Position numbers and translations under genes: made by a program
Part shown: piece after piece, positions 7,509 to 25,295 of the stretch
Layout of the letters: the number at the start of each line of letters is the position of its first letter
How positions within the stretch are numbered: position 1 is the first letter of the stretch
Source of the DNA: Azolla caroliniana
Taxonomy: Eukaryota > Plantae > Polypodiophyta
Length of the DNA: 64,000 bases
Assembly (NCBI GenBank): GCA_043228905.1
Contig: JBHGNT010000015.1
Coordinates: 11,842,001 to 11,906,000, forward strand
Reading direction: 5' to 3'
Notes under the pieces: generated by a model
Seen by the model: the letters and a program-made list of their open reading frames with translations, nothing else
What the model was told of the DNA's origin: nothing
The model's database searches: none

Positions 7509-9271
7509 GAAAGAAAGAAAGAAAGAAAGAAAGATGTATTAACGTCTTCTAAGGCCAAATTTGGCGCATGAGACAATTGGTTTACAACAATAGAGTATTT
7601 ATCCAGTCATCATAACTAAAAAAAAAATTAAGTAAAAAAAAATAGAACTTAAACTAAAAGAGTTCTAGTAGTGTACAATATGTAGTATACTCGAAAGTGA
7701 CTATACACTAAGCCTAATTTTATTTCCACCCAAGCCTCTCGAAAAGAAGTGGGGGGTCAAAGGGTCTTGATGTGGGTTCCAATGTAGAGAGTGCCCTAGC
7801 CATGGCTTCTAGGCGGTGTAGCTCACGTTCCCTTATTTTCAATATTGCTTCCACATCACGTTGAGTTGTTTTGAAACCCGGCACCCGAGGACGTCTGGTT
7901 CTTCTCTAGTTTTCTGCCTCATCAATGGAAAGGCCGAGTGGTGCAAGTGTGTCGGCATTCGTTGTCTCCTCAGGTTCCTGAAAAACTGCATTTGTTACAT
8001 GTTCGTGATCATTAGCAACATTATTGTCAACATTTTGTAATTTATTCTCTCTGTGTTGTTTTAGCTCTAGAATGTATTTGCCTAATTTCTTTATATCTAG
8101 AGTATCTAATAGTTTGGGGAGGGTGGGAGACGGACCAAGTATGTCTTGGTATTTTGCCCTTATCTCGGCATAGGTTGGACACTTGCATGTAAAGTGGTAC
8201 TCATCCTCTATCTCTATGTGACATAACCTACATATCCTTTCCTCCCTAGGGACTCCACTAGTACGGCCATTTTCAATCTCAAGTTGGTGAGACGATATTC
8301 TAAGTTGTCCAATGGCAACCCTTAGTGCATGTGGTAAGAATACATCTAGATATTTTGGCCGTGTGATAAAACCTAACTCAGAGAAGTGCATGAAGTGTTT
8401 CTTATAGTACGACATTTTAGATGGGAGTGGCTCTAGTGGGGTGATCCATTTACACCGAGTGTAAATTTGCCATATTTCTTGGCGTATTACTTTATTGCGG
8501 TTCTCATGAGAGATTAAGGTGTTATCACTCGTGTGGTTGTACCTAAGGGGAGGTAGGTTATTAATGTCTAGACCATTCGCAAGAAGCCAAGTCACCATCA
8601 TGCCATACCATGAGCTAGTATAGCCGGACTCATACAATGATCGAGAGGCCTTAAAGGCTTGATGAGATATTCTATCATGTGGTTGGCTATGTATCCTATC
8701 AATAAAGACTACAAGTTGAAAAAGTGCCTCTACTAGCATTGGGGGTAACGTGAACTCGGCCCTAATAATGTCATGTGGTACAATCGATTTGCTTCGGAGT
8801 TGGCGTGATAGCATCATCACCAATGGTCTCTCTAATTGCGTCCACACGAAGGATGGTAATCCTGGAGCCCAAACCGCTGATGCATACATGAGGGAGGGGG
8901 TCACTAATGAGTCAAAGAGCCACCCTTTAGTCCGTGGCTCTTGAAAGTGTGCTTGGTGGCATTGTCTCTCTAGGAGTGAGAGGGATGCATGTCCTCTCGT
9001 GAGTCTATCCTTCGCTGCCTGTGTCATCGAAAATTTACCTGAGCGGGCACTAAAAGTGACTCCGAGATATACGTACGATCCAACCACCTCGAATGGGCTA
9101 TGGGAGATAGTTAGGCGACACGTAGCTCTAACTTGGGCCGATGTGTGGAAGATAAGGACTTTCGTTTTCCCTAGATTCACTACCAATCCTCGTTGTACAC
9201 AAAAGTCATCTAAGGCATTGAGGTGCCTCTGTAGGTCGTGTTCGGATTCAGAGAGCAAAACTATGTCATTC
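7509..9271 (-). mobile_element. 5'-truncated non-LTR retrotransposon (RTEX-like LINE), copy 1
   Basis: RT thumb (YVYLGVTF) and SHQLEIENGR..PREERICRLC..EDEYHFTCKCPTY zinc finger in ORF 7906-9384; (CTTT)n tail; (GA)n of the C LTR on both sides. Confidence 0.88.
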
Positions 9272-9539
9272 AGAGAGAGAGCTCTTAAGGCAGAGATAGA
9301 AAACAACTGTATATTAACCAAAAATACATCAAACATAAAACATCCAACAGTAACTAAGTTACAATGCGTTGGTTTATATACCAACTAAGCTAGGGCAAGT
9401 GCCCTTTCTACTATTTACAAAACTAGCCCAACATGTCCATGAGCTAGTGTGAAACCTATCTATGGGAAGTTGAGTTCGACTCTCAACATCCGCACATATT
9501 CGAACACCATAACCACCAATTGGTACAGAGTGATGGGGG

Positions 9540-11170
9540 AGGAAAGTCCCCTCGTATGTCGACTAAAGAAAAGCCTATATGGATTAAAACAAGCGCTGAG
9601 GATGTGGTACCAAAAGTTCGACTCCTACATCAGGTAGCTTGGATACTGTTGATCCAACTCCAACCCATGTATGTATATTCGGCAACTGGCCGATGAGTCT
9701 CGGATCTATCTGATCCTTTATGTCGACATGCTGATTGCAGGGAGCAATCAAACTGAAATCGGAAAGCTAAAGAGGAGTCTTCACGACAAGTTTGCGATGA
9801 AGGAACTTGGACAAGCCCAACATATATTGGGCATGAGGATAGAATGAAATCGGAAGACAAAGACTCTTCAACTCTCCCAGTTCGACTACATTCGAAAGGT
9901 GCTGAGACGTTTCAACATGGAAAATTCCAAGCCAGCACCAACACCGCTTTTGACGTTGATACGACTATTGGACAAAGACTCTGCTTCGACGGATGAGGAG
10001 AAAGAGCTTAATGGAAAGATACCCTATGCATCGACAATAGGAAGTATCATGTATGTGATGGTGGCGACTCGACCTGACCTTGCATATGCCGTAGGAGTCA
10101 TCAGCCGGTACATGTCAAACCCAAGACGGAAGCATTGGGAGGTCGTCAAGCACAACTTCAGGTACCTAAGAGGAACCAAAGATGCACAACTGACTTTTAG
10201 ATCGGCAAATCCGGCCGAAGTCGAAGGCTACACCAACTCCGACTATGCCGGGAACTTGGACTATCGGAAGTCGACATTAGGCTACATCTTCACCTATGGT
10301 GGCGGTGCTATATGTTGGCCTAGGAGTATGAACCAGAGGGTTAATATGTACAAGGACGAGTCGGGGAATAATATTATATGTAGTAGCATAATTATTAGGA
10401 AATATTATAGGAACAGACAAATCTGGATAGTTGCACCGATCCGGATCCGCACCGATTGAAAGTGCCGGTTGCCGGTAAGGCATCGTTTTGTATTTCCTAT
10501 CGGGAACCAATAAAAGGACCTAGAATTGATGTAATTGTTAGCGGAAGTAATACAAGTTGAGCATTCTAATTTAATTCTATTGCGTCTCTTGTCTACTTGC
10601 TGTTCTGCGCTTTCATTCATAATCTTACGCATGTTTTCATTAATCAGTTGTATATTAATCATTTGGATAGTATCCGGAAATACTTGAATTGGAATTAGAT
10701 CGGAGTTGAATAACATCATTCCCTTAACCACCTCTTTGGTGAAGTGTCTGGGATGGACACCCCTGTGTTTGTGGCTATCTCCAGTCCAGAGTAAACACTA
10801 TATCATGGAGATCGAAGCTTCAAGAGTGCACGACTTTGTCTGCCACATAAGCTGAGTACATAGTAGCATTGGAGGCAGCGAAGGAAGCAATATGGTTGCA
10901 CCGACTAATTGCGGACTTCTCGGCTACGAGTTGAATCGATCGACCAACGCCGACCATCTACTGCGACTCATAGAGCACAATACACCTCGTCAATAATCCT
11001 GTCTATCATGCAAAGACAAAGCATATTGAGGTGCGGTATCATCATATTTGGGAGCTAGTAACTGAGAAGAAGCTCGAAGTCCAGAAGATTGACACCGAGG
11101 TGAACATTGTCGATTGCTTGACGAAGCCACTCCTAGGTCAATGTTTCGGAGCACTGAGGACAAAGATGGG
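9540..11170 (+). pseudogene. pol: RT/RNaseH remnant of element B
   Basis: [51 protein letters not shown] split by a solo LTR. Confidence 0.9.
10313..10797. mobile_element. Solo LTR
   Basis: TG..CA ends, TSD CTATA/CTATA; reverse complement resembles 55901-56334. Confidence 0.88.
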
Positions 11171-23309: not shown

Positions 23310-23764
23310 TGTTACGAGCATGGCCATATAATATCTCATGGTGAGAATTTACCGTAGTATTCTATACACGTGGATTAAGTGTGAGGGTTAAACGAGAGTG
23401 TAATGAAGGGGAGGATTACTTTTAATCTTTGGGATTGAGACAACTCATTAGGCCAAGTGTGAACTTGCCTGGGGGCCTTAGGTCTGGCTATAAATATGAG
23501 GCCTAACTACCCTCATTGGACACATTATCGACTACGTCGAGACTTTGACATTGTAGTGGGTCAACTCTTGTAGCGAGCGTGCCAGCACCAGGTACGACTC
23601 GATGCCATGACGGTGGTATGGGACGCCGATCGAGGCTCAAGTCCATCTCGATCCCTTCGATCGGGGGTGGTCGGGTGGATCAACACCCTTCTTTCTCTCT
23701 CTCCTTTCTTATTTATCTATCTTTTATCCTTATCATATGCTTACATTAGATCATCACTCTAACA
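23310..23764. mobile_element. Solo LTR in the gag of D
   Basis: TGTTA..TAACA ends; TSD CGAAC/CAAAC; TATAAAT inside. Confidence 0.82.
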
Positions 23765-24690
23765 CAAACTCTCTAAGATTGCTCCTGCCATCTTGCCATT
23801 GGTAGGTGTTACGTTCTCGGGTCGACTGACTCTGTTGCCCTCGGCCGACTCCTCTTCTATCATCCGACTGGGAGTAGAGCATCTGACCATCGGGTGCATT
23901 GCTCCTTTGTCGGGCATGATTTTCCTCCACCAATAGTATCGACTGAAGGTAAAAAAGGAAGGTGGATTCTCCCTTGCGAGAATGGCTGATCTAATCATGC
24001 CGAATCGAGGTGCTAAGCCACCGAGGCATATTTGCACCATCTTGTCATCATCGATGACGACGTTGATCGATCCAAGGGCGTCACACAACTCCTTGATCTT
24101 CAAAGTATAGCTGGTGATCGACATATCCCTCTATTGCATGTTATTTAACTCCTGTCGGAGTTGGAGCTTTCGTGCAGCCGTATTGGCTGCAAAAATCTTC
24201 TTGAGATTGCCCCAAGCTTCTTTCAGCGTTTTCGACTCTTGAATATAGCCTAACATGTGATCATGAACGCATGATGCAAGGAAATACATACAACACACGG
24301 CTTGCGGCATGCTCCCACGCTGGGTAGTTGGCGTGTGTTGGGTTGGGTTGCATTTCGTGAGCTCCTTCGATATAGCTCCAATAGCCTTGTCTGACAAGGT
24401 ATTGATGCATCGTGTATTCCCAAGATGCAAAGTTTGTCCTCTCGAGCTTCTCCATAGGAAGAGTACTTCCCATATGAGTATTCATGATGTCGATTTCTTT
24501 CTTTGTTGCTTGAACCGGTGAATCTGACGATCGTTGGTGTTGTGACCACAACATAGTTGAGTGACTTTGATAAGATAACCACACACTCTAATGCCATGTA
24601 AAGAAAGTGAGATGTAGGTGGTGCTATGCAACAGAAGCAAACTGTGTGTGTGTGTGTGTGTGTGTGTGAGTACACGTAAGGCAAGAGAGA

Positions 24691-25295
24691 GAAAGAAGAA
24701 AGAACAAAAGAAAGAAATATTAACGTCTTCTAAGGCCAAAATTGGTCCATGAGATAGTTGGTTTACAACAAAATGGGTATTTATCTAATCATCAGAACTA
24801 AAATAAAATAAAGTAAGAATGGAACTTAAGCTAAAAGAGTTCTAGTAGTGTACAAAACGTGGTATACTCAATAAAAGGAAGTGACTTTGCACTAAGCTTA
24901 ATTTCATTTCCACCCAAGCCTCTCGAAAAGAAGTGGGAGGTCAAAGGGTTTTGGTGTGGGTGTGACCCATGGTCTCAGTGTATAGAGTGCCCCAGCCATG
25001 GCTTCTAGGTGGTGTAGCTCACGTTCCCTTATTTTCTTTATTGCTTCTACACCACGTCCAGTTTCTTTGAAACCCAGCATCCAAGGGCGTTTGGTTCTTC
25101 TTTGGTTTTCTGCTTCATCAAGGAAAAGGCCAACTGGTGCAGGTGTGTCGATATTCGTTGTCTCCCCCTGTTCCTGAAAAACTTCATTTGTTACATGTTG
25201 GTGAACATTAGCAACAATATGTCAACATTTTGTAACTTATTCTCTCTGTGTTGTTTTAGCTCTAGGATGTAAATGCCTAATTTCTTTATATCTAG
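24691..25295 (-). mobile_element. 5'-truncated RTEX-like LINE, copy 3 (3' ~600 bp only)
   Basis: Colinear with 7509-8100; degenerate (CTTT)n tail; (GA)n on both sides. Confidence 0.88.

What the first reader, a model, noticed from the sequence alone, without database searches (positions are those of the whole stretch)
7509..25295. A LINE that repeatedly lands in the (GA)n microsatellite of copia LTRs
Seen: the only three LINE copies I found (7509-9271, 11603-14210, 24691-25295) lie at the equivalent GA tract, just before GAGAGCT, in LTRs of the related elements C and D. All share one orientation, sense to the host LTR. Each has a (CTTT)n tail at one end and a truncation point fused to (GA)n at the other. 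They are independent: lengths and sequences differ, D's two LTRs carry different copies, and C's 3' LTR (2459-2768) shows the empty site. Known: microsatellite-specific non-LTR elements exist in animals (Waldo and Mino in AC repeats, Kibi in TC repeats). Inference: a plant LINE that targets TC/GA repeats, perhaps by tail-target pairing during priming, and so parasitises LTR elements.
Basis: partly seen in the sequence, partly recalled or inferred. Interest (0 to 1): 0.85.

Follow-up and report, generated by a model that had tools for sequence, protein, structure and literature searches.

The report
Fern LINE preferring GA/TC microsatellites
Three independent copies of a fern-type jumping gene (a LINE) sit in GA repeats of two retrotransposon ends here, and 77 related copies elsewhere show a strong, one-way but loose bias for GA/TC repeats rather than for these ends, which likely makes it a plant counterpart of the repeat-targeting LINEs known from animals.

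Summary
Three independent, 5'-truncated LINE copies (76-88% alike, different ends) lie at the GA tract of copia LTRs C and D in one orientation, and C's other LTR is empty. Corrections: copy 2's tail abuts (CA)10, and a 128-bp extra insert duplicates its tract. A full-length relative (L016, 97% to copy 1) has ORF1 plus APE-RT ORF2 and a (CTTT)n tail; the nearest named proteins are from ferns. Among 77 outside loci, GA runs of 10 nt or more flank 7/49 tails (background at most 0.13%) and 6/40 5' junctions (at most 0.3%); TC on that strand flanks 0/40. Enrichment climbs with run length from 0.2x to 48-240x, but most copies sit at only 2-5 nt of GA, and none of 115 flanks is a C/D LTR. So GA/TC preference is supported, while strict specificity and C/D-LTR parasitism are not. 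The outside copies may come from a sister species and under-sample repeats. It works like fish Kibi; it is likely RTEX-like (recalled, untested). Ten literature searches found no plant case; Repbase could not be searched.

The parts
7509..9271 (-). LINE copy 1, 5'-truncated, young subfamily; (CTTT)6 tail at 7509-7534; stop-free ORF2 remnant 7906-9270 (end of RT plus C-terminal Cys/His motif)
   Evidence: 46 differences in 1731 nt to full-length L016
11603..14210 (-). LINE copy 2, 5'-truncated, older subfamily with stops and a frameshift; tail abuts (CA)10, 5' end fused to (GA)7
   Evidence: 87-90% aa to P0042/P0044
24691..25295 (-). LINE copy 3, short 3' fragment with degenerate tail; GA on both sides (about 4 and 11 units)
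   Evidence: 91.8% to outside copy L077
2459..2768 (-). Copia C 3' LTR with the empty (GA)8.5 site at 2545-2561
7422..9488 (-). Copia C 5' LTR interrupted by copy 1; primer-binding site at 7411-7421; C's target duplication decayed (2454-2458 versus 9489-9493)
11503..14568 (-). Copia D 3' LTR interrupted by copy 2 and by the 128-bp insert; D's 5-bp target duplication at 11498-11502 and 25506-25510
14230..14357 (-). 128-bp SINE-like insert with A/B-box-like motifs (read by eye), flanked by a duplicated (GA)nGCTTGA
   Evidence: no ARAGORN or Rfam match
24597..25505 (-). Copia D 5' LTR interrupted by copy 3

Best explanation
An abundant two-ORF LINE family of ferns (APE endonuclease, reverse transcriptase, (CTTT)n tail) sits at GA/TC runs in one orientation, the more often the longer the run, likely because its endonuclease nicks GA-rich DNA and the freed GA end pairs with the CUUU tail to prime reverse transcription. 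Shown: the anatomy, the independence of the three window copies, a pre-existing tract at C, and enrichment at both junctions of outside copies. Inferred: the nick on the GA strand, 2-4 bp of tail-target pairing, and little or no target duplication. Copia LTRs of this genome carry (GA)n tracts, so they are frequent landing sites, and C and D are likely hit as tract carriers, not as recognised hosts.
For: Window: 3 of 3 copies at GA tracts, P about 7e-8; empty (GA)8.5 site in C. Outside, tail side (49 copies with a tail): at least 2, 3 and 5 AG units in 20, 12 and 7, against simulated random insertion of 2.4-3.2%, 0.2-0.5% and 0.03-0.13%. 5' side (40 junctions): GA runs of at least 6 nt in 9-11 and at least 10 nt in 6, against about 1% and 0.3%; TC on the same strand 0/40; CA, TG and TA runs of 10 nt or more 0/40. 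Enrichment by run length is 0.2, 0.7, 5, 23-29 and 48-240-fold. 5 of 8 collapsed high-coverage contigs run from the tail into at least 5 AG units. L016 has an intact ORF1 and ORF2 with Exo_endo_phos E=5e-11 and RVT_1 E=2e-33.
Against: 29 of 49 tail junctions have at most one AG unit, and 29 of 40 5' junctions have under 6 nt of GA. GA at the two ends of one copy is uncorrelated (Fisher P=0.72), and only 1 of 34 copies has at least 8 nt on both sides (three of those 34 5' junctions later proved false), which insertion inside a long tract would not predict. The outside copies are short, from low-coverage assemblies and possibly from a sister species (9 of 77 loci hit the window outside the LINE, at 66-85%). 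In the window, 3 of 4 C/D tracts are filled and none of 30 others (post hoc P=0.0007; 0.03 for long tracts), which this model leaves to chance, age or clustering. Copy 2's tail abuts CA. Read laying gave no junction data.
Confidence: 0.7

Rival explanations
1. The GA beside the tail is made by the element itself: the tail ends in (CT)n or slips from CTTT to CT during priming and later expands, so the LINE seeds microsatellites rather than seeking them.
For: Long tracts are usually on one side only. Tail and GA are purine-only and their boundary is ambiguous by 1-2 nt. Three of four tail-less copies have (GA)n in place of the tail. LINE tails are known sources of microsatellites (PMC3812793, abstract start).
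Against: It does not explain GA at 5' truncation points (6/40 at 10 nt or more), C's empty (GA)8.5 site, or two different subfamilies at the same GA tract of one repeat family (L054, L056).
Confidence: 0.1
2. The LINE specifically parasitises C/D-family LTRs, recognising the tract in its LTR context or being recruited to these LTRs (the first reader's strong form; like the crocodilian Tx1 families that prefer particular LTR elements).
For: 3 of 4 C/D tracts are filled against 0 of 30 other tracts in the window. Three subfamilies hit the same position. Outside assemblies under-sample repeats.
Against: 0 of 115 outside flanks and 0 of 77 loci match C or D LTRs. Flanks are diverse, and 5' GA tracts end in many different sequences. 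Copies also sit in other LTR families (L070, L042/L073).
Confidence: 0.1
3. Insertion is nearly random, and copies survive or accumulate in repeat tracts because these are neutral (passive accumulation, as proposed for Drosophila Waldo-A/B).
For: Most outside copies have little GA. Precedent is described in PMC3812793 (passage).
Against: The bias is strand-specific (GA 11, TC 0 of 40), lies at the junction itself (GAG directly before the tail in 31 of 49) and is specific to GA among dinucleotides.
Confidence: 0.05
4. The window copies were spread passively inside LTRs from one ancestral insertion.
For: One outside pair (L042/L073) shares a truncation point and LTR flank; it may be one insertion assembled twice.
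Against: The window copies differ by 12-24%, far more than their host LTRs, have different ends, and C's 3' LTR is empty.
Confidence: 0.02

Closest known systems
Kibi (Tx1 clade, teleost fish; (TC)n target), with Koshi and crocodilian Tx1 families in (TTCC)n/(TTTC)n
   Same: APE-type non-LTR element associated with the same (TC)n repeat (PMC3812793 and PMC4494074, passages).
   Different: Fern host; loose, graded preference; ORF2 scores no better against human L1 ORF2p (80 bits) than against R2 (88 bits) and has no zf-RVT match, so it is likely not of the L1/Tx1 group.
Waldo and Mino (R1 clade, insects; ACAY/AC repeats); Dong (TAA)
   Same: Non-LTR elements found in microsatellites (PMC3812793, passage).
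   Different: Different repeat unit, host kingdom and likely clade.
RTEX (RTE-X) clade LINEs
   Same: Real ORF1 in front of APE-RT (RTEX differs from RTE in this, PMC3905857 passage); short tandem-repeat tails as in algal RTEX (PMC3747384 Table 3); RTE-X is listed for Ceratopteris (PMC6890710 Table 2) and Marchantia (10.1101/827881 passages). The C-terminal motif resembles RTEX (recalled).
   Different: No named RTEX sequence could be compared. No target preference was reported for RTEX in the passages I saw. ORF1 has no esterase or PHD match in Pfam.
Plant microsatellite-targeting DNA transposons (Micron, MuTAnT, SaTar) and Chlamys Penelope-like elements of Chlamydomonas ((C)n)
   Same: Plant or algal elements found at microsatellites (listing; PMC5907723 abstract; PMC9977147 passage).
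   Different: These are Mutator/MITE or Penelope-like elements; Micron and MuTAnT target (TA)n, Chlamys (C)n. None is an APE LINE.
Tx1-8_Crp and Tx1-4_AMi (crocodilian LINEs preferring particular LTR retrotransposons)
   Same: Precedent for LINEs that land repeatedly in LTR elements (PMC4494074 section 15).
   Different: Here outside flanks are not confined to one LTR family.

Membership tests
APE-type non-LTR retrotransposon (LINE) | ORF2 with APE endonuclease and reverse transcriptase | tested here: met
   L016 ORF2, 1247 aa: PF03372 E=5e-11, PF00078 E=2e-33; window copies match it and its cluster relatives
APE-type non-LTR retrotransposon (LINE) | Shared 3' end with repeat tail, variable 5' truncation, no LTR or integrase | tested here: met
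Target-specific LINE (Kojima 2015 rule: target in over 20% of flanks) | One sequence type in more than 20% of flanks | tested here: inconclusive
   GA run of 10 nt or more at either end in 15 of 63 copies (24%); tail side alone 7/49 (14%) at 5 units, 12/49 (24%) at 3 units. Borderline and threshold-dependent.
Kibi (Tx1 clade) | Specific insertion into (TC)n | tested here: inconclusive
   Strongly enriched, but most copies lie outside long tracts
Kibi (Tx1 clade) | RT phylogeny within Tx1/L1 | not testable with these tools
   No named Tx1 sequences available; weak contrary signs
RTEX clade | Full ORF1 upstream of ORF2 | tested here: met
   270-aa ORF1 directly upstream of ORF2 in L016
RTEX clade | Short tandem-repeat 3' tail | tested here: met
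   (CTTT)n in 49 of 53 scored copies
RTEX clade | RT tree with Repbase RTEX references | not testable with these tools
   Hits carry no clade names
Plant L1 clade | Poly(A) tail | tested here: not met
   Tail is (CTTT)n; flowering-plant L1s end in poly(A) in 224 of 233 families (PMC3747384 Table 3)
Plant RTE clade | Rudimentary or absent ORF1; (TTG)n or (TTGATG)n tail | tested here: not met
   270-aa ORF1 and (CTTT)n tail
LTR-specific LINE (Tx1-8_Crp type) | Flanks dominated by one LTR family | tested here: not met
   0 of 115 flanks match C/D LTRs; caveat: possibly a sister species, and repeats are under-assembled

The most novel reading that the evidence does not exclude
This is an undescribed land-plant LINE lineage, outside the Tx1 and R1 clades, that evolved (TC)n targeting independently of fish Kibi, with a (CTTT)n tail matched to its target. 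It has kept the preference across subfamilies 20% apart and repeatedly disrupts the GA tract in copia LTRs, acting as a hyperparasite that shapes LTR survival in fern genomes.
Probability: 0.45. Interest if true: 0.65.

Novelty: new variant of a known kind. Interest (0 to 1): 0.5.

Why it matters
In the papers I saw, microsatellite-targeting APE LINEs are animal elements of the Tx1 and R1 clades, and how they find their repeats is called poorly understood (PMC3812793). A high-copy fern family with a graded GA preference and an intact full-length relative would be a convergent plant case. It would let one separate endonuclease recognition from tail-target pairing, because thousands of junctions and a tail complementary to the target are available. 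It also warns that GA microsatellite markers and copia LTR annotation in ferns are interrupted by LINE fragments. It is not a new mechanism.

Tried and rejected
No host genome is held, so the genome-wide test used metagenome contigs. The viral collection had no match by DNA pattern or by protein. Laying contigs of four runs showed that thousands of contigs carry the element, but the tool skips the tail repeat and listed only 24 of 1286 and 24 of 184 loose ends, mostly subfamily differences, so it gave no junction evidence. Runs with small word shares were not used. Clade assignment failed for lack of named references; the Atlas gave unnamed arthropod and mollusc clusters. A search for target-site duplications in 34 copies found mostly 4-7 nt chance or GA matches, with possible cases at L033 and L076. 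Four of 44 apparent 5' junctions (L013, L023, L036, L043) proved to continue in LINE sequence and were dropped. A T before the GA run (30 of 49) is only weakly above expectation and is not claimed. The 128-bp insert matched no tRNA or Rfam family. Earlier-findings look-ups returned nothing.
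Full report
Setting. The window is a nest of mostly copia retrotransposons. No whole genome is held. The nearest named relatives of the LINE protein come from Adiantum nelumboides (47-73% over parts of ORF2), and one related cluster has a Pteridium aquilinum member, so the host is likely a fern.

Observation. Copia C (- strand) has LTRs at 2459-2768 and 7422-9488. 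Copia D has LTRs at 11503-14568 and 24597-25505, with a 5-bp target duplication. They are 81.0, 88.5 and 76.4% alike, against 92-98% and 91-94% for the non-repeat parts of the host LTR pairs, and end about 1745, 2589 and 578 nt from the 3' end, so they are three insertions. C's 3' LTR shows the empty (GA)8.5 tract, and the GA on the two sides of copy 1 sums to about 9 units. GA tracts of 8 nt or more make 0.42% of strand-aware sites, so 3 of 3 by chance is about 7e-8. Corrections: copy 2's tail abuts (CA)10, and a 128-bp insert (14230-14357) between two copies of (GA)nGCTTGA separates copy 2 from the rest of the LTR.

The element. A 22-letter 3'-end motif shared by the three copies (3 matches in the window, 0 expected) found 77 loci in metagenome contigs. 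L016, a collapsed high-coverage contig, is near full length: ORF1 of 270 aa, ORF2 of 1247 aa with APE (E=5e-11) and RT (E=2e-33), and a (CTTT)n tail. Copy 1 differs from it at 46 of 1731 sites. ORF2 scores 80 bits against human L1 ORF2p and 88 against R2 and has no zf-RVT match. A full ORF1, a repeat tail and the C-terminal Cys/His motif suggest RTEX, but that label is recalled and no reference set was available.

Tail-side flanks. Of 77 loci I dropped 8 collapsed contigs (coverage over 4), 3 duplicates and 13 without a scorable 3' end, leaving 53, of which 49 had a tail. At least 2, 3 and 5 AG units precede the tail in 20, 12 and 7 of 49. The same parser on simulated random insertions gave 2.4%, 0.22% and 0.03% (contig background) or 3.2%, 0.5% and 0.13% (window background). 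GAG directly precedes the tail in 31 of 49. By run length the enrichment is 0.2, 0.6-0.7, 5, 23-29 and 48-240-fold for 1, 2, 3-4, 5-9 and 10 or more nt (45 junctions); up to 2 nt of a run may belong to the tail. Three of the four tail-less copies have (GA)n in place of the tail, and 5 of the 8 collapsed contigs run into at least 5 AG units.

5'-side flanks. 44 junctions had 30 nt or more beyond them (nine ends were set by hand); 4 continued in LINE sequence and were dropped. Of 40, GA runs of at least 6 nt start at the junction in 9-11 and of at least 10 nt in 6, against about 1% and 0.3% in the GA-rich window (P at most 4e-9). TC on the same strand gave 0 of 40, and CA, TG and TA runs of 10 nt or more gave 0 of 40. 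Where the tail side has at most 4 nt of GA, 6 of 22 copies still have at least 5 nt on the 5' side (background 6.5-7.7%, P=0.002-0.005). A tail cannot make these, so the repeat is likely the target.

Results against. 29 of 49 tail junctions have at most one AG unit. GA at the two ends is uncorrelated (P=0.72), and only 1 of 34 copies has 8 nt or more on both sides (that set still held three false junctions), whereas two of the three window copies have GA on both sides. By the 20% rule of Kojima 2015 the family is borderline: 15 of 63 copies have 10 nt or more at either end. The contigs are short-read, low-coverage and biased to short copies in unique DNA. Only 9 of 77 hit the window outside the LINE, at 66-85%, so they may be from a sister species.

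LTR specificity. None of 115 flanks and none of 77 loci matches a C or D LTR. Some copies are in other LTRs: L070 next to a primer-binding site, and L042/L073 in a B-like LTR, both sense to the host; L054 and L056 are two subfamilies at the same GA tract of one repeat. L042 and L073 share a truncation point, which is either passive copying or one insertion assembled twice. In the window 3 of 4 C/D tracts are filled and none of 30 others (post hoc P=0.0007, or 0.03 for tracts of 14 nt or more), so some excess at C/D is not excluded.

Mechanism. By standard target-primed reverse transcription (established knowledge), the strand that reads flank, GA, GAAA tail is the primer. I infer that the APE domain nicks GA-rich DNA on that strand, that the freed end pairs for 2-4 bases with the CUUU tail, and that the 5' end joins with little or no duplication. 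Microsatellites are arrays of the best site and therefore hot spots; LTRs carry them.

Literature. Seen as passages: PMC3812793 (Waldo, Mino, Kibi, Koshi, Dong; mechanism not well understood), PMC3747384 (tail table), PMC3905857, PMC6890710 (Table 2), PMC5753468, PMC12477816, PMC9977147 and 10.1101/827881. PMC4494074: passages and section 15. PMC5907723: abstract and outline. No supplements were read. Ten searches showed no plant LINE with GA/TC targeting. Subscription papers and Repbase were not searchable, so novelty is provisional.

Verdict. The feature is real. It is a fern-type LINE with a strong, strand-specific, graded GA/TC preference that works like Kibi but is likely of another clade; LTR parasitism is likely a by-product. 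New variant of a known kind, interest 0.5.

Noticed in passing
window 14230-14357: 128-bp insert with tRNA A/B-box-like motifs on the - strand (read by eye) between two copies of (GA)nGCTTGA, possibly a SINE with a 16-25 nt duplication; a related piece flanks the LINE tail in L028 (685-737 as oriented, 78%). No ARAGORN or Rfam match.
   Followed up: partly
L026:98-173: An intact tRNA-Arg(TCG) gene lies directly upstream of, and in the same sense as, a roughly 100-nt 3' end of this LINE: either a tRNA-head/LINE-tail SINE or an insertion beside a tRNA gene.
   Followed up: partly
window 2177-11502 and 25506-25710: Both LTRs of copia B are interrupted, the 5' one by C and the 3' one by D; B's internal region runs from its primer-binding site almost directly into RT (internally deleted). 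C's target duplication differs at 3 of 5 sites, all C>T or G>A relative to the copy that matches B's other LTR.
   Followed up: partly
window 38066-42328: Stop-free 1420-aa copia gag-pol ORF between LTRs 96% alike (37582-38002, 42511-42931).
   Followed up: partly
window 6960-7368, 22277-22521, 48583-49138: Tandem duplications of 198 bp x2, 79 bp x3 and 282 bp x2 (93-99% matches) inside copia elements; real or assembly artefacts.
   Followed up: no
L037: The 5' junction has a short inverted copy of the opposite flank before a (GA)24 tract, a possible template switch during insertion.
   Followed up: no
window 10320-10835 and 23313-23850: About 500-bp insertions interrupt B's RT/RNase H region and D's gag region; similar sequences occur in L002 and L035 (76-78%). 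Possibly solo LTRs.
   Followed up: no
window 931-981, 48727-48781, 49009-49065, 54065-54140: Several other copia LTR families carry compound (TG)n/(GA)n/(CA)n tracts, all without a LINE.
   Followed up: partly
window 27640-27990 and 34240-35520: AT-rich 9/19/38-bp minisatellite region, and a purine-rich 93-bp repeat region.
   Followed up: no
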